A DNA stretch of 42,461 nucleotides, taken from a virus. Lineage: Duplodnaviria > Heunggongvirae > Uroviricota > Caudoviricetes. Each line of letters opens with the position of its first letter. The stretch's first letter is position 1. The position numbers were made by a program, and so were the translations under genes. The stretch lies in the IMG/VR virus record IMGVR_UViG_2703719365_000009. One strand, written 5' to 3'. Shown here one piece after another: positions 1-36,330 of the stretch. A model generated the notes under the pieces. The model saw nothing but the letters and a program-made list of their open reading frames with translations. It did no database searches and was not told where the DNA came from.

Positions 1-1349
1 CCATCGATGCCGCCAGCCGCACCCTGACGCTGGACCGTGAGGTGACACTGCCGGAGACCGGTGCCGCCACGGTGAACCTGATTAACGGCAGCGGTAAGCC
101 GGTGAGTGTGGACATCACCGCACACCCCGCGCCGGACCGGATACAGGTCAGTACCCTGCCTGATGGTGTGGAGACATACGGGGTGTGGGGACTCTCCCTG
201 CCGTCACTGCGCCGTCGCCTGTTCCGCTGTGTCTCCGTCCGGGAAAACACGGACGGCACCTTTGCCATCACGGCGGTGCAGCACGTACCGGAAAAAGAAG
301 CCATCGTGGATAACGGTGCCCGCTTTGAGCCGCAGTCAGGTTCCCTGAACAGCGTCATCCCACCGGCAGTACAGCACCTGACGGTGGAGGTGAGTGCAGC
401 TGACGGCCAGTATCTGGCGCAGGCTAAATGGGACACGCCGCGGGTGGTGAAGGGCGTGCGCTTCAGTCTGCGCCTGACCAGTGGTAAGGGAACGGATGCC
501 AGACTGGTGACCACCGCCATCACCGCAGACACGGAGCACCGTTTCAGCGGCCTGCCGCTCGGGGAATACACCCTGACGGTGCGGGCGATAAACAGCTATG
601 GCCAGCAGGGTGAACCTGCCACCACCACCTTCCGGATTGCCGCACCGGCAGCACCGTCGCGGATTGAGCTGACGCCGGGCTATTTTCAGATAACCGCCAC
701 GCCGCATCTTGCCGTTTATGACCCGACGGTACAGTTTGAGTTCTGGTTCTCGGAAAAGCGGATTGCGGATATCAGGCAGGTTGAAACCGCAGCCCGCTAT
801 CTTGGCTCGGCGCTGTACTGGATAGCTGCCAGTATCAATATCAAACCGGGCCATGATTATTATTTTTATATCCGCAGTGTGAATACTGTTGGCAAATCGG
901 CATTCGTGGAGGCTGTCGGTCGGGCGAGCGATGATGCGGAAGGTTACCTGGATTTTTTCAAAGGAGAAATCGGGAAAACACATCTGGCCCAGGAGCTGTG
1001 GACGCAGATTGATAACGGTCAGCTTGCGCCGGACCTGGCTGAAATCAGGACGTCCATTACGAATGTCAGCAATGAAATCACGCAGACCGTCAATAAAAAA
1101 CTGGAAAATCAGAGTGCGGCAATCCAGCAGATACAGAAAGTTCAGGTTGATACAAATAATAACCTGAACAGCATGTGGGCCGTGAAACTGCAGCAGATGC
1201 AGGACGGACGCCTTTATATTGCGGGTATCGGTGCCGGTATTGAGAATACGCCAGCAGGAATGCAGAGTCAGGTGCTGCTGGCGGCAGACAGGATTGCGAT
1301 GATTAATCCTGCGAATGGCAACACAAAGCCGATGTTTGTAACCAGGTGA
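1..1349 (+). pseudogene. J: Host specificity / tail tip protein J (lambda J-like), upstream portion; frame enters from window start and is cut by the Mu-like insertion
   Basis: Frame open from nt 3 (5-prime partial). Translation ends ...[22 protein letters not shown] then TR-stop at the insertion end; the conserved continuation [15 protein letters not shown] reappears in frame at 40716. Confidence 0.85.
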
Positions 1350-1515
1350 ATCATTTGATACCGACAAGGGTTTTAGTGAAAGGAGGTGAAATCACCTGTA
1401 AGATGCTGAAATAAAACAGGTGATGTATACTTCGGCCGGAAAACTCTTTTTGATACCGACTGCTCAACAAATAGTCAAAAGATCAAAAAACGGCGACACA
1501 TTTGATACTGCTAAT
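1347..1515 (+). repeat. Left end (attL-like): three transposase-binding-like repeats
   Basis: TTTGATACCGAC at 1354-1365 and 1449-1460, TTTGATACTGC at 1501-1511; first site TGAATCATTTGATACCGACAAG resembles the Mu L1 site as recalled; same motif inverted at the right end. Confidence 0.6.
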
Positions 1516-1692
1516 TTACCCTTAAAATCTTCTTCAAAACATCTTCAAACTGCCAAAATGCTCACATAATCGATCTAACTATAATCAGTATGATAATCAT
1601 CATGAATTACTATTCAATAGCGTGATTATCTTGGGATGAGTCATATGATCTCTATATGTATTTACAGCACCACCTCATGATAGCGATGGCGC

Positions 1693-2304
1693 TTAACCAA
1701 CAACATTTTTCTTTACTGTCACTGCCCCTAATTCCTGGGTGGCGTTATTGCTCGAGTTGTACTTCTCAATAACGCGCAAAATCTCTTTGTCTGTTTCTTC
1801 ACTTCCCGCCATTCCTATCTTTATTGCATTTTTTAGTACGGGACGTAATGGCAAGGCATCAATGATGCTTTCTACCGCATCCTGGCTGATTGTAGATGTA
1901 TTCATTGCTGCCAGCCTGACAAGGTTGTTAGTACCTTCTCGCCTGATGAATGTAAGGATTAATTGCTTCTCTTGGGGGCTTAGAGAGCTAAGCGCCTGAT
2001 CAATACCCGAACCTGAATCGCAATTGTTTTCGATTTTTCCGCATTTATCTTCGTTCTTGCCTGTGACCAACCATTCGAGTGAACAATTACAGGCTTTAGC
2101 TATTAAGGCCAGTTTATCCAAAGGAGGGAAGTTTTTCCCCTTCCTGTAATTTCTTACTGTGGCTTCAGATAGTCCACAAAGGGTCGCCAGTTCGACGTTT
2201 GTCATGTTTCCCATAGCCATAGCTAAGCGTTCTGAAAATCGGTTTATTCCTTCCATATCAATAAACCGTTCCGCACTGGATACGGTTTTTTCTGCCTTAT
2301 CCAT
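1693..2304 (-). CDS. Prophage repressor (Mu c-like position; HTH-type regulator)
   Basis: 203-aa ORF divergent from ner-A-B; RBS AGGGGG before ATG at 2304; sits about 350 bp inside left end as in Mu; product call by position and HTH-like N-terminus. Confidence 0.7.
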   Translation of the reverse strand: MDKAEKTVSSAERFIDMEGINRFSERLAMAMGNMTNVELATLCGLSEATVRNYRKGKNFPPLDKLALIAKACNCSLEWLVTGKNEDKCGKIENNCDSGSGIDQALSSLSPQEKQLILTFIRREGTNNLVRLAAMNTSTISQDAVESIIDALPLRPVLKNAIKIGMAGSEETDKEILRVIEKYNSSNNATQELGAVTVKKNVVG

Positions 2305-2460
2305 ATAACCCCCTATAAAACAAAGAAATTATCGATATCGCATTTAATTTCGATATGCTCGCAAAAAACCGTTGATATCGAATTATTTTGCGATTATGAT
2401 TTACCTAAATCGATAACCGGTTTTGATTATCGGTTCAGGTAAACATGAGAGGATCACACA
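2305..2460. promoter_or_regulatory. Repressor/Ner operator region with divergent early promoters; about six TCGATA-type repeats
   Basis: Repeats TTATCGATATCG 2329-2340, TTTCGATATGC 2348-2358, GTTGATATCGAAT 2371-2383, CGATTATGAT 2391-2400, AAATCGATAACC 2408-2419, TTGATTATCGG 2423-2433; candidate rightward promoter -35 TTGATA 2372-2377 and -10 TATGAT 2395-2400. Confidence 0.6.
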
Positions 2461-2727
2461 ATGAGGGTATCCAGACAAGCATCGAATAATTTGTTTGTTC
2501 GAGAGGGGTGTGACTGGTCTGCTAAAGCGGTATATGCAGCCCTTGAAAACAAAGGCACAGACCTCCCTGAACTGGAAAGGGAGTTAGGATTAAAAAGCGG
2601 ATCAATGCGCAATGTGTTTTACCGCCAGTGCCGTAAATACGAAGCCGCCATCGCCGAAAAAATAGGGGTTGAACCTGCTGTAATCTGGCCCAGCAGATAC
2701 CAGGTGGACGCCAGAGAAGTGGCTTGA
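2461..2727 (+). CDS. ner: Ner-like DNA-binding early regulator
   Basis: 88 aa; C-terminal VIWPSRYQ motif matches Mu Ner as recalled; first gene of early operon with RBS GAGAGGA. Confidence 0.85.
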   Translation: MRVSRQASNNLFVREGCDWSAKAVYAALENKGTDLPELERELGLKSGSMRNVFYRQCRKYEAAIAEKIGVEPAVIWPSRYQVDAREVA

Positions 2728-2737
2728 TGGGGGATGT

Positions 2738-4828
2738 ATGTGGGTAACAGCAAAAGAATGTGTTGGTCTTCCTGATTTACCAATGATGGAACATAACATT
2801 CGCCATCGACTCACAAAAGCAGCTGCGGGAAATGCAGCCATGTTACGCAAACGTAAGGGGACAAAAGCAATCGAATTTAATATCGATTGTTTGCCTTCTG
2901 GCGCGCAACAAGTATTGCGTGAACGTTATGCCCTTCAACTGATGACGCAAAAAGCTGATGAATCACCGGCTCCGGTGGTGACAAAGGCCAGACGCTCGCC
3001 TGCCGTGGTTGATGCTGTGGAGGCATATCGCGGATCACCACAACTGATGGTTGAACGCCTTAATGCCCTGACTGAAAACCAGCGCCAGGTGGCTGATGCA
3101 CGAATCGCGATCGTCAGCGAAGTGATGAAAGTCGCGCAACAACCCGGTTTCAGCTGTGCGAAAGCTATCCGGTTTATCGTTGACAACCTGGCACGTTCGC
3201 AGCTGGACGAGCGCATTGTGGCAATGGTTGAGACGGCGAACGCCAAAAAGGGAAACAGCCGTGCGTTGAGTGAAATCACGCTGAAACGCTGGATTGCAGC
3301 CTTTAACAAGGCGCAGAACGCCGCCGAACGCCTGCTTTTACTGGCACCGGGTAAGCGCCAGGAAATAAAAGCCGAAGATATTAACTGGCTGCCCGAATTT
3401 CTGGCGCAGTATCGCCAGTCAAACGGCCGACCAATGACCGAGGCTTACGAGGATTTTGTCGCTGAATGGCAGCACCGGCACGCTGATGAGCCTTATATGC
3501 TCGATATCATGCCGTCTTATGACACCATTCGCCGCGCAATGAAGAAACTGCCGGAAGTGGTGAAACAAAAAGGCCGGGTGACCGGCAGTGAATACCGCCA
3601 GCTTGAGGGATTCACGCGCCGCGACTGGTCCAGAATGCCGGTGAATTATGTCTGGATTGGTGACGGTCACGGCATGAAGCTGAAATGCGCACACCCGGTT
3701 CACGGTCGGCCATTTGCACCGGAAGTGACCTTTGTTATCGACGGTGGCACGCGCTTTGTGGTGGGCTGGAGCCTTGACCTGGCTGAAAATGTTTTCGCCG
3801 TAGCCGGTGCCATACAGCACGGCATTCGCCATCACGGCAAACCGTTTCTGTATTACTCGGATAACGGCTCCGGGGAAACCGCCGACATCCTGGATAAGGA
3901 GGTTGTGGGGATACTGCCGCGACTGGGGATTAATCACCCGACCGGGATTGCCGGTAATCCGCAGGGACGAGGCATTATCGAACGGCTTAACCGCACATTA
4001 CCGATGCGCATAGCCCGTAAATACCGCACCTATTTCGGGAAAGGTGCAGATCGCGAGACGTTACGCAAAACCAACCGCGATTTACGCTCGGCATTTACTG
4101 CCCTGCAACAGGGCAAACGGCTGAACGTCCGGCAGCAGTCAGCGATGCGTGATTTACCGTCCTGGTCTGAACTGATTGATGCCATTCGTGACGGTGTTGA
4201 GTGGTACAACAACCGGCCGCACGATGAATTACCGGTGAAGCCGAACGGCAAGCATTACAGCCCGGCGGAGTTCAGAAAAAAACGCCTGGCGGAAGAGGAC
4301 ACGGAAATTGAATGGCTGTCCGATGTTGAGCTGCGGGATATGTTCCGGCCGATGGTGGAACGCCCTGTAAGACGCTGTGAAATACGCTGGCTGAATAATA
4401 TTTACTACGCGCCCGAGCTGCGTGACGAGCATGGTCGTAAGGTGCTTATCAGCTATGACATTCATGATGCCGAACGAATTACCGTACGTCGCCTGGATGG
4501 CAGCGTGATTTGCGAGGCGGTATGGGACGGTAATAAACGCGAAGCCTTCCCGGTCAGCGCGGAATACTACAAACAGCAGCAACGCCTTAAAGGCATGCGT
4601 AAACGCGCAGAGGAAAAAATCCGTGATGCCGAGGATGAGGTTGTCAACGTGCTGGAGCACAAGCCGCAGGAGCCCTGGCTGGAAAACATATACCGCCCTG
4701 TGGGTAATACGGTGGCCGTTCAGCAACCTGCCGTTGATGATGAGCCTGATGAAGAATACGAGCGTAATTTCCAGCGGGGATTGCAGTTGCTCGAAGCGAA
4801 ATTAAAAGAAAATGACCCGCTGGCCTGA
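2738..4828 (+). CDS. A: Transposase A (MuA-like DDE transposase)
   Basis: 696 aa; N-terminus MWVTAKECVGLPDLP resembles MuA N-terminus; position after ner. Confidence 0.93.
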   Translation: MWVTAKECVGLPDLPMMEHNIRHRLTKAAAGNAAMLRKRKGTKAIEFNIDCLPSGAQQVLRERYALQLMTQKADESPAPVVTKARRSPAVVDAVEAYRGSPQLMVERLNALTENQRQVADARIAIVSEVMKVAQQPGFSCAKAIRFIVDNLARSQLDERIVAMVETANAKKGNSRALSEITLKRWIAAFNKAQNAAERLLLLAPGKRQEIKAEDINWLPEFLAQYRQSNGRPMTEAYEDFVAEWQHRHADEPYMLDIMPSYDTIRRAMKKLPEVVKQKGRVTGSEYRQLEGFTRRDWSRMPVNYVWIGDGHGMKLKCAHPVHGRPFAPEVTFVIDGGTRFVVGWSLDLAENVFAVAGAIQHGIRHHGKPFLYYSDNGSGETADILDKEVVGILPRLGINHPTGIAGNPQGRGIIERLNRTLPMRIARKYRTYFGKGADRETLRKTNRDLRSAFTALQQGKRLNVRQQSAMRDLPSWSELIDAIRDGVEWYNNRPHDELPVKPNGKHYSPAEFRKKRLAEEDTEIEWLSDVELRDMFRPMVERPVRRCEIRWLNNIYYAPELRDEHGRKVLISYDIHDAERITVRRLDGSVICEAVWDGNKREAFPVSAEYYKQQQRLKGMRKRAEEKIRDAEDEVVNVLEHKPQEPWLENIYRPVGNTVAVQQPAVDDEPDEEYERNFQRGLQLLEAKLKENDPLA

Positions 4829-11964: not shown

Positions 11965-11970
11965 CCCCAA

Positions 11971-11998
11971 ATCCCGCCATAACGCGGGATTTTTATTT
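11971..11998 (+). terminator. Rho-independent terminator ending the early operon
   Basis: ATCCCGC-CATAAC-GCGGGAT hairpin followed by TTTTATTT. Confidence 0.7.
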
Positions 11999-12033: not shown

Positions 12034-12459
12034 ATGGCAGAAACTCAGATGAGCATGTTTGGTGGTGACAGTGAGCAACTGCACGCCCTTATCGACCGCC
12101 TTGATGACATCCCTGATGATGTTCTCAAAAAGAACTGGCCGCGGACCCTGTCAGAACTGGTTGAAGTCACCGGCGCAGAACTTCAGCGTCAGGGGATTGA
12201 GCCGGTACTGGCCGGCAAACTGGCACGCAAGGTGGCTGCGGCTCAGGCAGCCTATATGGGCGGACGGGGTTATTACCTGCCGGTCGGGGAATCTCTCTTT
12301 GCCGAGCTGCGAAACAATGAGATATTTTCGCGCTGGGACCGGGGCGAGAAAATTGAATCCCTTCGCCGCCATTACCGGATGTCAGAAACCCAGATTTATA
12401 CCGTCATACGTGAACAGCGCCGTCTGCATCTGGCAAGAACACAACCGCCACTTTTCTGA
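12034..12459 (+). CDS. Mor/C-family transcription activator (C-like by position, immediately upstream of lys)
   Basis: 141 aa; C-terminal YLPVGESL...IYTVIREQRRL resembles Mor/C family HTH region as recalled; RBS GGAGG. Confidence 0.75.
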   Translation: MAETQMSMFGGDSEQLHALIDRLDDIPDDVLKKNWPRTLSELVEVTGAELQRQGIEPVLAGKLARKVAAAQAAYMGGRGYYLPVGESLFAELRNNEIFSRWDRGEKIESLRRHYRMSETQIYTVIREQRRLHLARTQPPLF

Positions 12460-12530
12460 TATTCCGCAAAGCCTGCCGCCTTTCCTTCACCGTTACGCTG
12501 ACTCAGAGAACATCATGAGACAGCGTAACA

Positions 12531-15093: not shown

Positions 15094-16757
15094 TGAATAA
15101 CGCCGAAGAACTCTCACCCTTACTGACGAATACCGTCTCCACCCGCAAAATTGATCTGGCCGGTGAAAAAGCCCTGCTGGGCGTGGATGTGCCGGACAGC
15201 CTTGATTTGCCCGGTGATATGCCGGTGTTTCTGGATTATCAGGCCCGCTGGTTTGAGGATGAAAGCGAGGTCTGCATCGCGGAAAAATCCCGCCGCACCG
15301 GGCTTACCTGGGCGGAAGCCGGGCGTAACGTCATTACCGCTGCAAAACCGAAGCGGCGTGGTGGCCGCAATGTGTTTTATGTGGGGTCAAAGCAGGAGAT
15401 GGCGCTGGAATATATTTCTGCCTGCGCACTGTTCTCCCGTGCCTTTAACCAGCTGGCAGATGCTGATGTGTATGAGCAGACCTTCTGGGATCGGGATAAA
15501 AAAGAAGAAATTCTGACCTACATGATCCGCTTTCCGAACAGTGGATTCAAAATTCAGGCACTGTCTTCCCGTCCGTCAAACCTGCGCGGCCTTCAGGGGG
15601 ATGTGGTGATTGATGAAGCCGCGTTCCACGAGTCACTGGATGAGCTTCTCAAGGCGGCAATGGCGCTTACCATGTGGGGCGCGCGCGTGCGTATTATCTC
15701 CACGCATAACGGCGTCGATAATCTGTTTAATCAGTACATTCAGGAAGCCCGCGAGGGGCGCAAGGATTACAGCGTCCACCGCATTACCCTGGATGATGCC
15801 ATTGCGGACGGGCTGTACCGTCGTATCTGTTATGTCACCGGCCGCGAATGGTCACCGGAAAGCGAGCAGAAGTGGCGTGATGATCTCTACAAAAACGCCC
15901 CGACCCGTGAGGATGCCGACGAGGAATACGGCTGTATCCCGAAAAAATCCGGCGGTGCCTATATTCCTCACGCGCTTATTGAAATGGCGATGATCCGCGA
16001 CATCCCGATTCTGACGTTTGAAGCCCCGGACGACTTCATCAGCCGTGCCGCATGGCTGCGTGAATCGGAGGTTTTAACCTGGTGTGAAGAACATTTAAAA
16101 CCGCTTTTAGAGGCGTTAAATCCCCGTTCCCGCTTCAGCTTCGGGGAAGACTTTGCCCGCACCGGAGACCTGTCCTGCTTTGTGCTGCTGGAAATCACTG
16201 AATCCCTGGCAAAACGCGAGGTGTTTCGCGTGGAGCTGCGCAACCTGCCGTATGCCCAGCAGGAGCAGGTGATGATGTACATCCTGACCCGCGTTCCGGC
16301 GCTGGTCGGTGCGGCGTTCGACGCCACCGGTAACGGCGGCTATCTGGCCGAAGCCGCGCTGCTGGCCTTTGGCCCGGACATCATCGACTGCGTGATGTTA
16401 TCGCCGAAGTGGTATGGCGAGTGGATGCCAAAACTGAAGGCCGAGTTTGAGGATCAGAATATCCTCGTCGCCCGCCATCAGACCACGCTTGATGATTTGC
16501 GCCATGTGAAGGTGGTGAACGGTATCCCGCAAATCGACAAGGGGCGTACGAAGGACCAGAACGCAACGGCTGTGAACGCCCGCCGCCATGGTGATTTTGC
16601 CGTGGCGCTCTGTATGGCAAACCGGGCGTCATACATGGAGGGCTTCATCCTGGATGAATCAGCCTGTCAGGCGCTGCCGGAGCGGTCGCGGGCAATGGAG
16701 GGCGGTTATCGTGATGACGATGAGGCATATCATGAATTTGATCGGGGGTGCTGGTAG
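15093..16757 (+). CDS. Terminase large subunit (Mu gp28-like)
   Basis: 554 aa; position and size; start overlaps upstream stop. Confidence 0.85.
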   Translation: MNNAEELSPLLTNTVSTRKIDLAGEKALLGVDVPDSLDLPGDMPVFLDYQARWFEDESEVCIAEKSRRTGLTWAEAGRNVITAAKPKRRGGRNVFYVGSKQEMALEYISACALFSRAFNQLADADVYEQTFWDRDKKEEILTYMIRFPNSGFKIQALSSRPSNLRGLQGDVVIDEAAFHESLDELLKAAMALTMWGARVRIISTHNGVDNLFNQYIQEAREGRKDYSVHRITLDDAIADGLYRRICYVTGREWSPESEQKWRDDLYKNAPTREDADEEYGCIPKKSGGAYIPHALIEMAMIRDIPILTFEAPDDFISRAAWLRESEVLTWCEEHLKPLLEALNPRSRFSFGEDFARTGDLSCFVLLEITESLAKREVFRVELRNLPYAQQEQVMMYILTRVPALVGAAFDATGNGGYLAEAALLAFGPDIIDCVMLSPKWYGEWMPKLKAEFEDQNILVARHQTTLDDLRHVKVVNGIPQIDKGRTKDQNATAVNARRHGDFAVALCMANRASYMEGFILDESACQALPERSRAMEGGYRDDDEAYHEFDRGCW

Positions 16758-18346
16758 TGGGACGCATAATTGATCTTGACGGAAAACCTTTCTCCTTTGA
16801 CCCGGAGATGCAGAGTGCCGTGCTGGATATTCCGCAGATTGCCAGCCGTTATATTGAACATCCGGCCTCGGGTATCACCCCGAACCGGGCGGCACAGTGC
16901 CTTCGCGGAGCTGAACGTGGCGATCTGATTGCCCAGTCCGATCTGGCCGCTGACATTGAAGAAAAGGATACCCACCTTTTTGCAGAGCTGGGCAAGCGAC
17001 GCCTTGCCATTCAGGGGGTGTCCTGGAGTATTGAGCCGCCCCCGAACGCCAGCGCGAATGAGAAAAAGGACGCGGAAATGCTCGACGAATATCTGCATTC
17101 CGCCGACTGGTTTGATGCCATGCTGTTTGATGCCACCGATGCCATCCTGAAGGGCTATTCCTGTATGGAGATTGAGCACGGGATGCTCGGTAAAATGCAC
17201 ATCATCCGCGCCATCCGCTGGCGTGACAGCGGGCATTTCTGCCTTAACCCGGATGATTTGAGCGAACTGCGGCTGCGTGACGGCAGCCATGCCGGGGTGG
17301 CGTTTCAGCCCTTTGGCTGGATAGTGCATCAGTCGCGTTCACGCACTGGCTACGGTGGTGCGACGGGGCTTGTCAGAACGCTTATCTGGCCGTTCATTTT
17401 CAAAAACTATTCCGTGCGCGATCTGGCTGAATTTCTGGAGGTGTACGGCCTGCCGATGAAGGTCGGTAAATACCCGTCCGGGGCAACACCGGAGCAGAAA
17501 AGCGCCCTGATGCGGGCGGTGATGGATATCGGGCGACGTACAGGCGGGATCATCCCGGCCGGGATGTCGCTGGAGTTTCAGGCGGCAGCGAACGGTCAGG
17601 CCGATCCGTTTGAAACCATGATTTCGTGGGGGGAGCGTTCCATCTCCAAAGCTATCCTCGGCGGCACGCTGACCACGGAAGCCGGAGACAAGGGCGCACG
17701 TTCGCTGGGTGAAGTGCATAACGAGGTGCGCCGGGAAATCAGGGATTCTGATTTACGTCAGCTGGCCGCCACGCTGAACCGCGATCTGGTGTATCCGCTG
17801 TATGCCCTGAACACCGCCCACGCCATTGATATCCGTCGCCTGCCGCGTATCTGTTTCCAGACAAAAGAGCCGGGGGATATCACCAAAATCACCAGTGCGG
17901 TGATGCAGCTCAGTACGGGGATGGATATTCCTGATCCCTGGGTGCGGGAGCAGACCGGTATTCCACAGCCTGCCCCCGGTGAAGCCATCTTCCGTGTCCG
18001 TCAGAGTGGCAATGAACCTGCTCAGACAGACAAAGAGATGCCACCGGAAAAACAGGAGAAGACAGAGCAGACAGCGCTGGCTGCCAGACTGCCGGAAGCG
18101 AAGAGCAGCCCCCGAGATGAACTGGACGACATGGGGGATGCGGTGCCTGCCCGCCGGTTACAGGAGGCCATCGACCCGGTACTGGAGCCGGTCATTGAAG
18201 CCATCAGAACGCGGGGGCTGGCGGAGGCACTGGCAGACCTGCCTGCCCTTTACCGTGAAATGGATGATTCCCGCCTGATGACGCTGCTCAGTGATGCCAT
18301 GTTTGCTGCGGAAATGAAGGGGATGCTGGATGGCACAGGGGATTGA
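16748..18346 (+). CDS. Portal protein (Mu gp29-like)
   Basis: 532 aa; GTG start overlapping terminase stop; follows terminase. Confidence 0.85.
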   Translation: MLVVGRIIDLDGKPFSFDPEMQSAVLDIPQIASRYIEHPASGITPNRAAQCLRGAERGDLIAQSDLAADIEEKDTHLFAELGKRRLAIQGVSWSIEPPPNASANEKKDAEMLDEYLHSADWFDAMLFDATDAILKGYSCMEIEHGMLGKMHIIRAIRWRDSGHFCLNPDDLSELRLRDGSHAGVAFQPFGWIVHQSRSRTGYGGATGLVRTLIWPFIFKNYSVRDLAEFLEVYGLPMKVGKYPSGATPEQKSALMRAVMDIGRRTGGIIPAGMSLEFQAAANGQADPFETMISWGERSISKAILGGTLTTEAGDKGARSLGEVHNEVRREIRDSDLRQLAATLNRDLVYPLYALNTAHAIDIRRLPRICFQTKEPGDITKITSAVMQLSTGMDIPDPWVREQTGIPQPAPGEAIFRVRQSGNEPAQTDKEMPPEKQEKTEQTALAARLPEAKSSPRDELDDMGDAVPARRLQEAIDPVLEPVIEAIRTRGLAEALADLPALYREMDDSRLMTLLSDAMFAAEMKGMLDGTGD

Positions 18347-19661
18347 TTTAGGTTATGCCGCCACGCTTCCCTCAAAAGAGGCGGTGGCATACTTCCGCGC
18401 CAAAGGGGCGCATATCAGCTGGAACTGGTTCGAAACAGACGCGGATGTTCATGCCCGTTCATTCACGGCGGCAAAAGTGGCACGCCTGGACGTACTGACC
18501 ACACTACAGGCGGAAGTGCAGCGTGCTGTTGATGAGGGGATTTCACAGAAAGCATTTATCCGCACACTGACACCCCGCCTGCAAAAGCTGGGATGGTGGG
18601 GAAAGCAGATTGTGGTGGACAGCGCCGGTAACGCAGAAGAAGTGCAACTGGGCAGTCCCCGCCGTCTGGCGCTGATTTACAACGTGAACACCCGCGTGGC
18701 TTACAATGCCGGGCGTTACACGCAGATGATGAACAACACGGACACGCATCCGTTCTGGCAGTATGTGGCGGTGATGGACAGCCGCACCCGCCCGGCGCAT
18801 TCCGCCCTTAACGGGCAGGTATTCCGCTATGACGATCCGTTCTGGAATACACACTACCCACCCAATGGCTGGAACTGCCGCTGCCGTGTCCGGCCATTGT
18901 CTCAGACCCGTCTGGATGCAATGGGGTTATCCGTTTCATCCGGTCAGGATCATCTTTCCACCCGCAATGTTGAGGCTGGCGTGGATAAGCAGACCGGAGA
19001 AGTCAGAGAAATGCCGGTGACCACATATTCAGATGGCACCAGAACCATGACACCGGATGTGGGCTGGTCATATAACCCCGGCTCGGCGGCGTTCGGCACA
19101 GACCAGGCGTTGATCCGTAAACTGATCGAGGTGAAAAGCCCGGCGCTGCGGGAAATGGTGGTGCAGGAGATGAACAACAGCCCGGAGCGGCAGCTGGCGT
19201 TCCGCATCTGGGCAAAAAACATCATGAAAACCCGGCGAGGCGGTAACGATATCCGCACGCTGGGCTTTATGACCGAAAGCATTGCGCAGGCGGTGGAAAG
19301 CCGGACGGGAACGCCACCGGCCCGCCTGCTGGCGATGAGCGGTAAAAATGTGCTCCATGCGGACAGCGTGAAACATCAGAATGACGGCATCGCCCTGACG
19401 CCGGAGGATTTCGGGCGATTACCGGCAATGCTGGCAAAGCCAAAAGCGGTACTGTGGGATAAACGCCACAACAATCTGATGTATATCGTGGAAAGTAAGG
19501 ATGGCAGTGTGCAGATTGCCGTTAATGCGCCGTACAGCCTGAAGCGTCAGCCGGATAAACTGGATGTGATTGTGAATGCTTACCGGGTTATCAATATGGA
19601 TAAGCTGAAATCGGATATCCGGGGCGGAATGCTTGAGGTACTGGAAGGAGATATTGATTAA
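18330..19661 (+). CDS. Head morphogenesis protein (Mu F / gp30-like)
   Basis: 443 aa; follows portal, overlapping start. Confidence 0.8.
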   Translation: MAQGIDLGYAATLPSKEAVAYFRAKGAHISWNWFETDADVHARSFTAAKVARLDVLTTLQAEVQRAVDEGISQKAFIRTLTPRLQKLGWWGKQIVVDSAGNAEEVQLGSPRRLALIYNVNTRVAYNAGRYTQMMNNTDTHPFWQYVAVMDSRTRPAHSALNGQVFRYDDPFWNTHYPPNGWNCRCRVRPLSQTRLDAMGLSVSSGQDHLSTRNVEAGVDKQTGEVREMPVTTYSDGTRTMTPDVGWSYNPGSAAFGTDQALIRKLIEVKSPALREMVVQEMNNSPERQLAFRIWAKNIMKTRRGGNDIRTLGFMTESIAQAVESRTGTPPARLLAMSGKNVLHADSVKHQNDGIALTPEDFGRLPAMLAKPKAVLWDKRHNNLMYIVESKDGSVQIAVNAPYSLKRQPDKLDVIVNAYRVINMDKLKSDIRGGMLEVLEGDID

Positions 19662-19782
19662 CGGTCAGTGGCGGGGGTCGAACCCGCATACATGATCCAC
19701 CCGGAGGCAGGCACCGACTTTACCAGTTAAGCGTACACTGACCGCCTGCTTATTTTATATTCATATTTTATACGGAGGCAAT

Positions 19783-20256
19783 ATGTCATCCATTGATGCC
19801 GCCGTCGTTGTTGACGTTACGCGTCTCCAGCGGGTCTTTGCCCGGCTTCAGTTTGTGGGTGGCGGAAAAGACCTGGCCCGCAGTGTGGCGTCCAGCCTTC
19901 TGTCATCGTCAGAAATGGCGTTTGAACAGGAAAAAGAGCCGGACGGCGAACGCTGGCATGACTGGTCAGATCCTTACCGCAAGTGGCGTACCCGTAAGGG
20001 ATACATGCCCGGCAAAATCCTGACGCTGAACGGCGATCTGGCCCGACGCCTGACCACGGATTATGGCGACACCTGGGCGCTGATTGGATCAAATGAGCCT
20101 TATGCGGCCATTCATCAGTGGGGTGGCCTGCCAGGTATGCCGCCGGGACCGGCGGCCATTGGTGCACGTCCGTATATGGGCTTTGATCAGGTGGCAGAGC
20201 AGGAGATCATGGACGAAATCAGAAAACGCTTTAAAAAGGCCACAGAAACGCCTTAA
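19783..20256 (+). CDS. Virion morphogenesis protein (Mu G-like)
   Basis: 157 aa; RBS GGAGG; Mu G is about 156 aa at this position. Confidence 0.75.
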   Translation: MSSIDAAVVVDVTRLQRVFARLQFVGGGKDLARSVASSLLSSSEMAFEQEKEPDGERWHDWSDPYRKWRTRKGYMPGKILTLNGDLARRLTTDYGDTWALIGSNEPYAAIHQWGGLPGMPPGPAAIGARPYMGFDQVAEQEIMDEIRKRFKKATETP

Positions 20257-20432
20257 TTGTTTAAGGTATGCAAATGCATTACCTTACCCCCTTCAGGCGC
20301 GTGTCGTGATTTTCTAACCTGTATTTAACGGGCTTTAAAATCTGCGTGAAGCGCCTTTGTATTTTTCCCCTGGAAGCACTTCCTGAAATCCCGCAAAACC
20401 CGCCCTGAAAATTCCCGGCTTATGCTGCCGGA
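20257..20432 (+). promoter_or_regulatory. G-I intergenic region: candidate late promoter and candidate central strong gyrase site
   Basis: 176-bp gap at the midpoint of the element; contains TCCCGCAAAACCCGCCC (20389-20405), similar to the motif upstream of lys. Confidence 0.4.
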
Positions 20433-21557
20433 ATGAAGACGAAAAACACGCCCAAACTTGCTTATGCCATTCTGAATGCCATCAGCCTGTCCGCAGACGG
20501 GGACGGTGACTGGTGTCAGATCATGCCAGCCGGTCGGGTAAAGGCCCGTGACGGTCGCCCGGAAAAACCGGCCGAGGGCTGGCTGATCAACCATGCAGCC
20601 GTTGAGCGCATGGTCTCCCGGGTTGTGGCGCTCAATCAGCCGGTGAAAATTGACTACAACCACCAGACCCTGATTAAGGGGCATCAGGCACCGGCTGCCG
20701 GTTTTGTGATGGCCTCACCGGAGAATTTTCGCTTCAGTGAAGAGCGTGGCTTCGAGGTGCGCCCGAAGTGGAACCCTCCGGCCCTTGAACATCTGCGTAA
20801 TAACGAATTCCCCTGGTTTTCACCGGTGATTGGCTATGACGAGAACACCGGCGAACCTGTCGAACTTCGGATGCTGGCTATTACCGGTGACCCCGGTCTG
20901 ACCGGCATGAATCCTGTCGCCGCGCTGTCGGCGGATGACCTTTATAACGCCTTAAACCCTCCTTTAAAGGATACCTCCATGAATGAGCAATTACGCCAGT
21001 TGCTGACGGCGCTCGGTCTGACCGTGGCTGACGGTGACGAATTTACGCCGGAGCTGGGCACGGCGGCGCTGTCTGCCCTCACCGGGATCAAAACCCGTGC
21101 GGATGCACACGACAACCTGAAAACACAGGTCGCCAGTCTGTCGGCAGAGCTGGAAACCGCAAAAGGCACACCGGCTGGCGGCAGTATTGATCTGACGAAA
21201 TACGTGCCCGTTGAAACGTATAACGCCCTGCGTACCGAATACGTTGCGCTGTCGGCGCAGCACGGCAGCACCACGCTGGAGCAGGTGCTGGACAAGGCTG
21301 AATCCGAAGGGCGCATCTTCAAAAGCGAACGCGGCTATCTGGAACAACTGGGCGGGCAGATTGGCGTTGCGGCACTTTCTGCACAGCTTGACGCCCGCCA
21401 GCCGGTTGCGGCCCTGACCTCTCTTCAGACCGACACCGTGACCGTGCCGGATAAAAAGACTGCCACCGCTGCGCTGTCGGCTGAAGATATCGCGGCCGCC
21501 AAACTGCTGGGTAAAACCGAAGCCGAGTTCCTGAAAATGAAAGAGGAAATGCAATAA
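20433..21557 (+). CDS. Head protease / scaffold protein (Mu I-like)
   Basis: 374 aa; position before major head subunit. Confidence 0.8.
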   Translation: MKTKNTPKLAYAILNAISLSADGDGDWCQIMPAGRVKARDGRPEKPAEGWLINHAAVERMVSRVVALNQPVKIDYNHQTLIKGHQAPAAGFVMASPENFRFSEERGFEVRPKWNPPALEHLRNNEFPWFSPVIGYDENTGEPVELRMLAITGDPGLTGMNPVAALSADDLYNALNPPLKDTSMNEQLRQLLTALGLTVADGDEFTPELGTAALSALTGIKTRADAHDNLKTQVASLSAELETAKGTPAGGSIDLTKYVPVETYNALRTEYVALSAQHGSTTLEQVLDKAESEGRIFKSERGYLEQLGGQIGVAALSAQLDARQPVAALTSLQTDTVTVPDKKTATAALSAEDIAAAKLLGKTEAEFLKMKEEMQ

Positions 21558-22504
21558 TGCCTACCCCGATTACACCGGCGATGATCACCGCCCTGATGAC
21601 GGGCTACCGTTCTGATTTTCAGGCCGGGATGTCCATGGCCCCGTCGCAGTATAAAAAAATTGCGATGACCGTGCCCTCCACATCGAAATCCAACACCTAC
21701 GGCTGGCTGGGGCAGTTCCCGCAGTTCCGTGAGTGGATCGGCTCCCGCGTCATCGAGAAGATGAAAGCCTATGGCTATGCCATCGTGAACAAAACTTTTG
21801 AAGGCACTGTCGCCATTAGCCGCGATGACTTCGAAGACGACAACCTCGGTATTTATTCCCCGTTGTTCCAGGAGATGGGGCGCGCTGCGGCGGTACAACC
21901 GGATGAGCTGGTCTTTGCTGCCCTGCGTGACGGGATCAGTGCGGCCTGCTATGACGGTCAGAACTTCTTTGATACCGAACATCCGGTTTACCCCAAAGTG
22001 GATGGCTCCGGGGATGCGCAGATGGTCAGCAATATGTTTGTGGCAAAAACCGGCTCTGTCGGCGCACAGGCTGATTACAGCGGTCCGGCCTGGTATCTGC
22101 TTGACTGCTCCCGCGCGGTAAAACCGCTGATTTATCAGGATCGCCGTAAGGCTGAACTGGTTGCCCAGACCAAAGTCGATGAAGGTCGCGCATTCACCGA
22201 TAACGAATTTGTGTTCGGTGCATCCGCCCGTCGCAATGTGGGCTACGGCTTCTGGCAGATGGCCTACATGATGCAGTCACCGCTGACGCTGGATGCACTG
22301 TGGCACGGCTGGTCAGCCATGCGCGAATTTACCGCTGACGGTGGCCGCAAACTCGGCATCAAACCCACCCATATTGTTGTCCCCACCTCGCTGGAAAAAC
22401 AGGCGGTGCAGCTGCTGGAGCGTGAACTGTTCGCAGACGGAAACGCCACCGTTTCTAACGAGATGAAGGGCAAGCTGGAGCTGGTTGTCGCGGATTATCT
22501 GTAA
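21557..22504 (+). CDS. Major head subunit (Mu T-like)
   Basis: 315 aa; start overlaps upstream stop (TAATG). Confidence 0.82.
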   Translation: MPTPITPAMITALMTGYRSDFQAGMSMAPSQYKKIAMTVPSTSKSNTYGWLGQFPQFREWIGSRVIEKMKAYGYAIVNKTFEGTVAISRDDFEDDNLGIYSPLFQEMGRAAAVQPDELVFAALRDGISAACYDGQNFFDTEHPVYPKVDGSGDAQMVSNMFVAKTGSVGAQADYSGPAWYLLDCSRAVKPLIYQDRRKAELVAQTKVDEGRAFTDNEFVFGASARRNVGYGFWQMAYMMQSPLTLDALWHGWSAMREFTADGGRKLGIKPTHIVVPTSLEKQAVQLLERELFADGNATVSNEMKGKLELVVADYL

Positions 22505-35769: not shown

Positions 35770-36330
35770 ATGCTGATTGGCTATATACGCGTATCAACAA
35801 ATGACCAGAACACCGGTTTACAAAGAAATGCGCTGGAATGTGCAGGATGTGAGCAGATTTTTGAAGACAAAATGAGTGGTAAAACGACACAGCGGCCGGG
35901 ACTGAAGCGGGCACTGAAGAAACTAAAACCCGGTGACACACTGATGGTCTGGAAACTGGACAGGCTGGGGCGCAGTATGCGCCACCTTGTTGCGCTGACA
36001 GATGAATTACAGCAACAGGGGATAAATTTTCGTAGTCTTACTGACAACATTGATACGTCAACCCCCATGGGGCGCTTCTTTTTTCACATAATGGGTGCGC
36101 TGGCAGAAATGGAGCGTGAATTAATTGTCGAACGGACACGGGCTGGTCTTGCAGCTGCCCGTGAAAGGGGACGAACCGGCGGCAGACCCCGCCGTCTCAC
36201 GCAGGAACAATACGAGCAGGTCGGGCGTTTACTGGCCGGGGGTGTCAGTCGAAGACAGGTGGCACTTATTTTTGATATCGGCCTTTCAACCCTTTATCGT
36301 TATTATCCTGCGAGCGTTTCGGAAAAATAA
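35770..36330 (+). CDS. gin: Gin/Hin/Pin-family serine DNA invertase
   Basis: 186 aa; N-terminal GYIRVSTNDQ catalytic serine motif and C-terminal HTH; RBS AAGGAAGG; adjacent to gixR. Confidence 0.95.
   Translation: MLIGYIRVSTNDQNTGLQRNALECAGCEQIFEDKMSGKTTQRPGLKRALKKLKPGDTLMVWKLDRLGRSMRHLVALTDELQQQGINFRSLTDNIDTSTPMGRFFFHIMGALAEMERELIVERTRAGLAAARERGRTGGRPRRLTQEQYEQVGRLLAGGVSRRQVALIFDIGLSTLYRYYPASVSEK

What the first reader, a model, noticed from the sequence alone, without database searches (positions are those of the whole stretch)
20257..20432. Central G-I intergenic gap: candidate strong gyrase site
This 176-bp non-coding gap lies at about 48 percent of the element length, between the G-like and I-like genes. 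Mu carries a strong gyrase-binding site at its centre in the G-I spacer, required for efficient replicative transposition. The equivalent position here is consistent with an analogous site, alongside the late-promoter motif noted above.
Basis: partly seen in the sequence, partly recalled or inferred. Interest (0 to 1): 0.4.

Follow-up and report, generated by a model that had tools for sequence, protein, structure and literature searches.

The report
Central gyrase site of Mu-like prophage

Summary
Positions 20257-20432 are a 176-bp non-coding gap between the G-like and I-like genes. It lies at 48.0-48.5% of a 39,380-bp Mu-like prophage (1337-40716); Mu's gyrase cut lies at 48.7%.

The window is a close variant of Sakai prophage Sp18, and the gap differs from Sakai's by one base. 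A 2023 review states that the Sakai prophage site was the only foreign gyrase site able to replace the Mu strong gyrase site (Oram & Pato 2004).

- A 27-mer (20305-20331) matches Mu at 23 of 27 bases, at the same offset from the G stop codon (0 of 2000 shuffles). It falls in the part of Mu's right arm reported as essential.
- Block 20293-20355 is nearly invariant among 19 Sp18-like haplotypes.
- A profile built from other Mu-like lineages has its best hit in the whole window here.

By homology the cleavage centre is near 20273-20276, and the left arm lies inside gene G. The right half of the gap is a separate element, the late promoter of gene I.

Verdict: already known, low interest. Gyrase cleavage itself was not testable here.

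The parts
19783..20256 (+). G-like virion morphogenesis gene. Its last ~47 bp (about 20210-20249) would be the SGS left arm, which is dispensable in Mu.
   Evidence: Pfam PF05069, E 1e-33. The left-arm assignment is inferred by mapping Mu's -65..-26 region (PMC6463007) onto the window.
20250..20299 (.). Predicted gate-segment core of the gyrase site (-25..+25). The central 4 nt mapped by homology are 20273-20276 (AATG; Mu has AATC), which predicts staggered cuts at 20272|20273 and 20276|20277. An imperfect palindrome at 20262-20286 is centred on this point.
   Evidence: The alignment to Mu is ungapped from the right arm. The Mu central 4 nt 17876-17879 were derived from the Sutormin 133-mer register and the GenBank cut-site feature. 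The A-T-[C/G] centre keeps its register in other lineages. The palindrome is seen. The exact cut is inferred to within about 3 nt; it was not measured here.
20300..20359 (.). SGS right arm (+26..+85). It holds phased A/T tracts ATTTTCTAAC, TATTTAAC and TTTAAAAT at +36-40, +49-55 and +61-68. The 27-mer 20305-20331 is conserved with Mu. The block 20293-20355 is almost invariant.
   Evidence: The 27-mer matches Mu at 23 of 27 bases at the identical offset from the G stop. Diversity pi is 0.005 with 3 of 63 sites variable, against 0.08-0.12 in the rest of the gap and 0.085 and 0.25 at third codon positions of G and I. An nhmmer profile of other lineages gives its top hit at 20298-20342, E 0.0048. 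The tract positions match the A/T peaks of the Topo-Seq gyrase consensus.
20360..20390 (.). Variable spacer between the gyrase site and the promoter. It contains the small hairpin GGAAGCACTTCC.
   Evidence: This stretch has the highest diversity in the gap, pi up to 0.19. It cannot be aligned between lineages.
20391..20404 (+). Late-promoter activator box CCGCAAAACCCGCC, the analogue of Mu's C-dependent promoter P_I.
   Evidence: The pattern CCGCAAARCCYGCC has only two exact copies in the window: here and at 12464-12477 upstream of the lysis gene. Each copy sits 16 nt before a TAYGCT hexamer. It aligns with the Mu P_I region.
20421..20426 (+). Predicted -10 hexamer TATGCT of the late promoter for gene I.
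   Evidence: The spacing is identical to the lysis-gene copy, and the hexamer aligns with TAAAAT/GAAAAT/CAAACT in other lineages. This is an inference; no transcript data were available.
20433..21557 (+). I-like head protease/scaffold gene.
   Evidence: Pfam PF10123, E 1e-76. It is 51% identical to Mu I.

Best explanation
The gap carries the Sp18-type counterpart of the phage Mu strong gyrase site (SGS), immediately followed by the late promoter of gene I.

The proposed mechanism is taken from work on Mu and is not shown here. Host DNA gyrase binds with its cleavage centre near 20273-20276. It wraps the right arm (about 20300-20359), whose A/T tracts are phased with the helical repeat, around a GyrA C-terminal pinwheel domain. 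From there it supercoils processively. Because the site lies midway between the prophage ends, the growing supercoiled loop has the site at its apex and brings the left and right ends together. This allows transposase synapsis and efficient replicative transposition after induction.

Shown here: the position, the homology to Mu, the purifying selection on the right arm, and the near-identity to the Sakai sequence.

Taken from the literature: gyrase cleavage and functional replacement of the Mu site by the Sakai site.

Inferred: the exact cut position, and that this particular prophage depends on the site.
For: 1. The gene order portal-F-G-gap-I-T and the Pfam families identify a Mu-like head module.
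2. The window is 97-99.6% identical to Sakai prophage Sp18, and the gap differs at one base, 20420 T versus C, which lies outside the gyrase site. Many O157:H7 genomes are 100% identical over 20180-20520.
3. Review PMC10052514 states that, of all gyrase sites tested in place of the Mu SGS, only the site from the Mu-like prophage of E. coli O157:H7 Sakai promoted Mu replication, citing Oram & Pato 2004.
4. The central position is 48.1% for the predicted dyad against 48.7% in Mu. Central location is reported as obligatory for SGS function (PMC6463007).
5. The only strong Mu-window similarity in the spacer is a 27-mer with 23 of 27 matches, at gap offset 48-75 in both phages (0 of 2000 shuffles, z 7.4). 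In Mu this is +31..+57, inside the +26..+65 stretch reported as essential.
6. Among 19 Sp18-like haplotypes, 20293-20355 has 3 of 63 variable sites against 42 of 158 at G third codon positions (Fisher p 1.5e-4).
7. G-I spacers of at least seven other Mu-like lineages, including ones from Edwardsiella and Avibacterium, all carry three T(3-6)-R-A(2-4)-[C/G]-G units spaced about 21 and 11-12 bp apart, in an ungapped register. A profile built from them without any Sp18-like sequence gives its best hit in the 42-kb window at 20298-20342 (E 0.0048).
8. With position 0 set at 20273 by homology, the window's A/T tracts fall on the A/T peaks of the published gyrase consensus. The right-arm phase score peaks exactly at 20273, z 3.1, rank 67 of 84,642.
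Against: No gyrase cleavage data could be produced or read here. The primary paper (Oram & Pato 2004) is not in the held library. That its PCR fragment was the G-I spacer therefore rests on my recollection of the paper and on the fact that Sp18 is the feature the Sakai record labels as a Mu-like phage in the regions fetched.

The published gyrase position matrix was truncated in the held supplement. My consensus-derived proxy is a poor discriminator: the Mu SGS itself ranks only 34th full-length and 779th for the right arm, and the window's gap is not a top full-length hit.

The window lacks Mu's proximal T6A4 tract at +14..+24. The core bases at the reported bend positions differ from Mu: TA and AC instead of GC and GC. 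A simple Fourier test of A/T periodicity puts the right arm only in the top 2-3%.
Confidence: 0.88

Rival explanations
1. The gap is only a promoter and leader region for gene I. On this view the conserved block at 20293-20355 is an upstream regulatory element of the late promoter, such as a second activator site or an UP-like element, and not a gyrase site.
For: A late-promoter box and a -10 hexamer are really present in the gap. The strongest 10-12 bp A/T periodicity of the whole window lies over the promoter and the I start, at 20383-20455.
Against: The conserved block ends about 65 bp upstream of the -10 hexamer and about 35 bp upstream of the activator box. A variable, unalignable spacer separates it from both. 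No comparable block precedes the other copy of the late-promoter box at 12464. In Mu the homologous bases lie in the gyrase-footprinted, genetically essential right arm.
Confidence: 0.04
2. The three conserved T(3-6)-R-A(2-4)-[C/G]-G units are sequence-specific binding sites for a protein other than gyrase, either a nucleoid protein or a phage protein. That protein would organise the centre of the prophage, with or without gyrase.
For: The units are conserved as sequence, not merely as A/T phasing, across lineages whose I proteins are only 40-60% identical and whose spacers are otherwise unalignable. Formation of the Mu prophage domain depends on IHF, Fis and HU as well as on the SGS (abstract of PMC3820752).
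Against: Published dissection of the Mu SGS attributes right-arm function to phased bending signals and to a gyrase DNase I footprint from +26 to +85. The window's own units are degenerate (TTTTCTAACC, TATTTAACGG, TTTAAAATC), which fits a mechanical signal better than a strict recognition site. No candidate protein was identified here.
Confidence: 0.06
3. The gap encodes a structured RNA or a transcription terminator at the 3' end of the G transcript.
For: The gap folds more stably than shuffles, z -3.7, with 0 of 200 shuffles as stable. A hairpin at 20262-20286 follows the G stop codon.
Against: Rfam gives no match in the gap even at E up to 1. No terminator-like site was found there, and the hairpin has no U-run after it. 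The hairpin arms vary without compensation among Sp18-like haplotypes. The most conserved block is not the most structured part.
Confidence: 0.02

Closest known systems
Strong gyrase site (SGS) of phage Mu (G-I spacer; cut annotated at 17879/17880 of NC_000929)
   Same: Same genes on both sides and the same fractional position in the genome. The conserved right-arm 27-mer lies at the same distance from the G stop codon. The predicted central 4 nt are nearly the same (AATG against AATC). A late promoter for gene I follows downstream.
   Different: The core and the proximal right arm have diverged: 7 of 36 identities over 20257-20292. Mu's T6A4 tract at +14..+24 is replaced by GC-rich sequence, and the window has an extra A/T tract at +61-68. 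The spacer is 20 bp shorter, all of it in the promoter leader.
SGS of prophage Sp18 of E. coli O157:H7 Sakai (Oram & Pato 2004, J Bacteriol 186:4575)
   Same: 175 of 176 bases of the spacer are identical, and the predicted gyrase site itself is identical. The review reports it as the only foreign site able to substitute for the Mu SGS.
   Different: The window's prophage is a variant of Sp18. It has a different immunity region (no match over about 1427-2903), 97-99.6% identity elsewhere, a length of 39,380 bp against 38,756 bp, and a different insertion site.
Strong gyrase sites of pSC101 and pBR322, and the 130-bp Topo-Seq gyrase motif
   Same: The general architecture is shared: a cleavage core flanked by arms with A/T tracts at about 10.7-bp phasing (PMC6379681). 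The window's tracts fit the right-arm phase.
   Different: There is no sequence homology. According to the review these sites did not promote Mu replication. The window's core matches the Topo-Seq core consensus poorly, 3 of 16 positions by my own reading of the consensus.

Membership tests
Mu-type strong gyrase site (SGS) | Lies in the spacer between the G (virion morphogenesis) and I (protease/scaffold) genes | tested here: met
   Pfam assignments and ORF coordinates; the Mu annotation; the statement in PMC2628397 that the site lies between gpG and gpI in Mu and FluMu.
Mu-type strong gyrase site (SGS) | Central position in the transposable prophage | tested here: met
   The predicted dyad is at 48.1% of 1337-40716, against 48.7% in Mu. 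The ends were verified.
Mu-type strong gyrase site (SGS) | [quoted passage not shown] | tested here: met
   23 of 27 identities at the identical offset, reached by 0 of 2000 shuffles. The nhmmer profile of non-Sp18 lineages gives its top hit at 20298-20342, E 0.0048.
Mu-type strong gyrase site (SGS) | Phased bending signals (A/T tracts) in register with the cleavage centre | tested here: met
   Tracts at +5-8, +36-40, +49-55 and +61-68 coincide with the consensus A/T peaks. The phase score is maximal exactly at position 0 = 20273, z 3.1. The score is a proxy and was not validated as a genome-wide discriminator.
Mu-type strong gyrase site (SGS) | High score with the published gyrase position-weight matrix (the Mu SGS scores 14.3) | tested here: inconclusive
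   Matrix table DS10 is truncated in the held supplement. The consensus-derived proxy ranks the Mu SGS only 34th, and the window gap does not stand out.
Mu-type strong gyrase site (SGS) | Specific quinolone-induced gyrase cleavage in vitro and in vivo | not testable with these tools
   I recall this being reported for the Sakai sequence in Oram & Pato 2004, but the paper is not held.
Mu-type strong gyrase site (SGS) | Promotes efficient Mu replication when placed at the centre of Mu | not testable with these tools
   The review PMC10052514 reports this for the Sakai prophage site. The window's site is identical to Sakai's over the gyrase-site part of the gap.
Mu C-dependent late promoter (P_I analogue) | A conserved activator box at fixed spacing upstream of a TAnnnT -10 hexamer, recurring at other late operons of the same phage | tested here: met
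   Exact copies of CCGCAAARCCYGCC occur at 12464 and 20391, each 16 nt before TAYGCT.
Mu C-dependent late promoter (P_I analogue) | Transcription depends on the C-like activator (12034-12459) | not testable with these tools
   No expression data were available.

The most novel reading that the evidence does not exclude
The three T(3-6)-R-A(2-4)-[C/G]-G units of the right arm are conserved as sequence, with a rigid spacing of about 21 plus 11-12 bp and a fixed distance to the cleavage centre. This holds in Mu-like phages from Enterobacterales to Pasteurellaceae. That degree of conservation may mean base-specific recognition, either by the GyrA C-terminal domain or by an unidentified protein, rather than a purely mechanical bending signal. 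If so, the pattern would be a searchable signature that separates replication-competent strong gyrase sites from ordinary strong cleavage sites.
Probability: 0.12. Interest if true: 0.5.

Novelty: already known. Interest (0 to 1): 0.15.

Why it matters
The site explains how a 39-kb transposable prophage brings its two ends together quickly after induction. It also marks this prophage family, present in 228 of 5,426 complete E. coli genomes and many O157:H7 strains, as probably using the same gyrase-driven mechanism as Mu.

Nothing new about that mechanism emerges here, because the Sakai copy of this sequence was reportedly tested in 2004. There are two practical gains. The gap now has a base-level map: core, right arm, spacer, late promoter. 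And a cross-lineage right-arm signature is available that could be used to annotate such sites in other Mu-like phages.

Tried and rejected
1. Scoring with the published gyrase matrix. Table DS10 is cut off in the held supplement. Proxies built from the 133-nt consensus, by base match or by weak/strong base pattern, rank the true Mu SGS only 247th and 34th, so they are not valid genome-wide detectors. I kept only the register-specific right-arm phase test.
2. Fourier power of A/T content at 10-12 bp. It does not discriminate: the right arms of Mu and of the window fall only in the top 2-3%.
3. Primary papers. Oram & Pato 2004, Oram et al. 2006 and Pato & Banerjee 1999 are not held. The Topo IV paper's supplement has no matrix. 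One literature search returned only irrelevant papers.
4. A coding or RNA-gene reading of the gap. There are no real ORFs, no Rfam hit in the gap, no tRNA and no terminator or sigma-70 consensus promoter.
5. The 'tRNA-OTHER' shown under the first E. coli hits looked as if it might lie in this gap. It lies in the F-G gap instead.
6. blastn-short of the Mu SGS against the window gives only weak scattered hits, the colinear ones being at 20218-20229 and 20316-20331. The homology is real but short, which is why blastn against the phage collection missed Mu for the gap alone.
7. The GTDB scan returned only 3 loci. The IMG/VR scan supplied the diversity needed.

Full report
**What is there**

The window holds a Mu-like prophage. 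The ORFs at 16748-18346, 18330-19661, 19783-20256, 20433-21557 and 21557-22504 match the Mu portal, F, G (Phage_tail_S), I (Mu-like_Pro) and T families. The G-like ORF ends at 20256 and the I-like ORF starts at 20433, so the reported 176-bp gap is exact. Only trivial ORFs of 20-23 aa lie wholly inside it. GC falls to 42-44% there. The gap has no Rfam family, tRNA, intrinsic terminator or sigma-70 consensus promoter.

**Where the element ends**

The annotated Mu-like insert in Stx phage LC727895 and Sakai prophage Sp18 share their termini with the window. The left end TGTAACC... lies at 1337 and the right end ...GCGCTATA at 40716. An empty site in other E. coli, inside a lambdoid gpJ gene, is 396 nt where the joined flanks with both repeat copies are 400 nt. 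The element is therefore 39,380 bp. The gap lies at 48.0-48.5% of it, and the Mu gyrase dyad lies at 48.7% of Mu.

**Identity of the prophage**

The region 19700-20900 is 100% identical to several E. coli chromosomes and occurs in 228 of 5,426 complete genomes. Over 20180-20520 many O157:H7 strains are 100% identical. Against Sakai Sp18 the window is 97-99.6% identical outside the immunity region. The G-I spacer differs at one base, 20420 T versus C, which lies next to the promoter -10 hexamer and outside the gyrase site.

**What the literature says**

The 2023 review by Mu researchers states that Pato tried many strong gyrase sites at the centre of Mu. [quoted passage not shown] The primary paper is not held. 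I also recall that its abstract reports specific gyrase cleavage of that site in vitro and in vivo; that point rests on my memory only.

Anatomy of the Mu site, from PMC6463007:
- The left arm, -65..-26, is dispensable.
- The gate segment spans -25..+25.
- The right arm, +26..+85, is footprinted by gyrase. Its first 40 nt are essential and carry phased bending signals.
- The site works only at the centre of the phage.

PMC13284261 and the review agree that the right arm is the essential, distinctive part.

**Homology to Mu**

Mu's cut is annotated at 17879/17880, 20 bp after the G stop codon. The register of the Sutormin 133-mer places the central 4 nt at 17876-17879. This agrees with the +7G/+8C bend positions given.

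A local alignment of the two spacers finds one significant segment, 23 of 27 identities. It is window 20305-20331 against Mu 17908-17934, at offset 48-75 from the G stop codon in both phages (0 of 2000 dinucleotide shuffles, z 7.4). In Mu coordinates this is +31..+57, inside the essential part of the right arm.

Carrying the ungapped register leftwards gives a predicted central 4 nt of 20273-20276 (AATG; Mu has AATC). The predicted cuts are at 20272|20273 and 20276|20277. The core itself is poorly conserved, 7 of 36 identities over 20257-20292. The cut position is therefore an inference, good to perhaps 3 nt either way. An alternative register at 20270 fits the Topo-Seq core consensus better (my own reading of the consensus), but it fits the arm phase worse.

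**Conservation within the Sp18 type**

Nineteen distinct haplotypes from IMG/VR plus the window were compared.

| Region | Diversity (pi) | Variable sites |
|---|---|---|
| 20293-20355 | 0.005 | 3 of 63 |
| Left of it in the gap | 0.083 | 8 of 36 |
| Right of it in the gap | 0.116 | 23 of 77 |
| G third codon positions | 0.085 | 42 of 158 |
| I third codon positions | 0.254 | 115 of 200 |

The contrast between the block and G third positions has Fisher p = 1.5e-4. The most constrained stretch of the whole G-I region is thus non-coding, and it coincides with the mapped right arm at 20300-20359.

**Conservation across lineages**

The G-I spacers of the Mu type and of at least six further lineages were examined. 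The further lineages are represented by L008/L060, L036/L037, L038/L046, L054, L031/L032, L007 from Edwardsiella and L009 from Avibacterium. Most spacers are 174-229 bp long. Outside two elements they cannot be aligned.

- The first element is three T(3-6)-R-A(2-4)-[C/G]-G units spaced about 21 and 11-12 bp apart, in an ungapped register downstream of an A-T-[C/G] centre.
- The second is the late-promoter box.

An nhmmer profile built from these lineages, without any Sp18-type sequence, gives its best hit in the entire window, both strands, at 20298-20342 (E 0.0048). The next hit has E 0.098.

**Fit to the general gyrase motif**

The published matrix was not available, and full-length proxies failed validation on Mu itself. 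A narrower test was possible. I took the A/T phase pattern of the arms from the published consensus and fixed position 0 by homology. The window's right arm then scores z 3.1, rank 67 of 84,642, with the local maximum exactly at 20273. Mu peaks exactly at 17876 with z 2.3.

The window's A/T tracts of 4 nt or more lie at +5-8, +36-40, +49-55 and +61-68. The consensus peaks are at about +4-6, +19-22, +39-41, +49-53 and +61-65. The +20 peak, which Mu fills with T6A4, is missing in the window.

**The rest of the gap**

The pattern CCGCAAARCCYGCC has exactly two perfect copies in the window: 12464-12477, upstream of the lysis gene, and 20391-20404. Each lies 16 nt before a TAYGCT hexamer. Both align with the C-dependent promoters Plys and P_I of Mu. 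It is separate from the gyrase site, with a variable spacer at 20360-20390 in between.

**Mechanism**

The best-supported account, at confidence 0.88, is that gyrase binds at about 20250-20299 and wraps the right arm on a GyrA pinwheel domain. It then supercoils processively from the centre of the prophage, which promotes synapsis of the ends at 1337 and 40716 for replicative transposition. The steps from binding to synapsis are taken from work on Mu. Position, homology and selection are shown here.

The rivals are less well supported:
- A purely promoter-related element: the block is too far upstream and is separated from the promoter by variable DNA.
- A site for another protein: this cannot be excluded, and it forms the basis of the novel reading.
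- An RNA element or terminator: there is no conservation of pairing, no U-run and no Rfam hit.

**Verdict**

The feature is already known, being the Sp18-type strong gyrase site reportedly tested in 2004, so interest is low. The contribution here is the base-level map and the cross-lineage right-arm signature.

Noticed in passing
window 19663-19742, minus strand (F-G gap 19662-19782): A tRNA-like element lies opposite to the late genes. It scores 31 bits against Rfam tRNA (gathering score 29, E 2.4e-4) when only 19600-20500 is searched, and it has an oversized anticodon region. PGAP annotates it as 'tRNA-OTHER' in E. coli genomes. ARAGORN and the whole-window Rfam run miss it. Mu has no F-G gap at all.
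   Followed up: partly
window 1333-1336 and 40717-40720; L005 (Sakai); L003 (LC727895): The prophage is flanked by a 4-bp target duplication (TGTT), not the 5 bp typical of Mu. The empty site in other E. coli is 396 nt against a 400-nt query. Two independent insertions also show 4 bp: TAAA in Sakai and AGAG in LC727895. The right terminus ends ...CTATA rather than ...CA.
   Followed up: partly
window 1-1336 and 40717-42461: The Mu-like prophage is inserted inside the gpJ tail-tip gene of a lambdoid prophage, so this is a prophage within a prophage.
   Followed up: partly
window 20421-20435: The predicted -10 hexamer of the gene I late promoter (TATGCT, 20421-20426) ends only 6 nt before the I start codon at 20433. 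A transcript from this promoter would therefore be leaderless or nearly so. Mu has a leader of about 30 nt, and the Sp18-type spacer is 20 bp shorter exactly there. The single difference from Sakai (20420) lies directly before this hexamer.
   Followed up: partly
window 20383-20455: The strongest 10-12 bp A/T periodicity of the whole 42-kb window lies over the late promoter and the first codons of gene I. The homologous Mu region does not stand out in this way.
   Followed up: no
window 20262-20286: An imperfect palindrome, TAAGGTATGCAAATGCATTACCTTA, is centred within 1 nt of the homology-predicted gyrase dyad. Several Sp18-like haplotypes carry uncompensated changes in its arms.
   Followed up: partly
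window 11965-11978: A 2-mismatch relative of the late-promoter box (CCCCAAATCCCGCC) lies just upstream of the C-like activator gene at 12034-12459. It may be the analogue of Mu's middle promoter.
   Followed up: no
L007 825-1500 (Edwardsiella anguillarum); L009 1130-1500 (Avibacterium paragallinarum): In L007 the G-I spacer is 676 bp: the gyrase-site-like repeats are followed by extra AT-rich DNA that may encode an inserted minus-strand gene. In L009 a second array of four TTTAAACGC units at 10-11 bp spacing follows the first three units.
   Followed up: no
window 36430-40588: About 4 kb of extra genes lie between the invertase gene (35770-36330) and the right end. They include a 679-aa ORF at 36430-38469 and a mom-like modification gene region. 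This is cargo in the position of Mu com/mom.
   Followed up: no
window 1427-2903: The immunity/repressor region has no megablast match to Sakai Sp18, although the rest of the prophage is 97-99.6% identical. This prophage therefore probably has a different immunity type.
   Followed up: no
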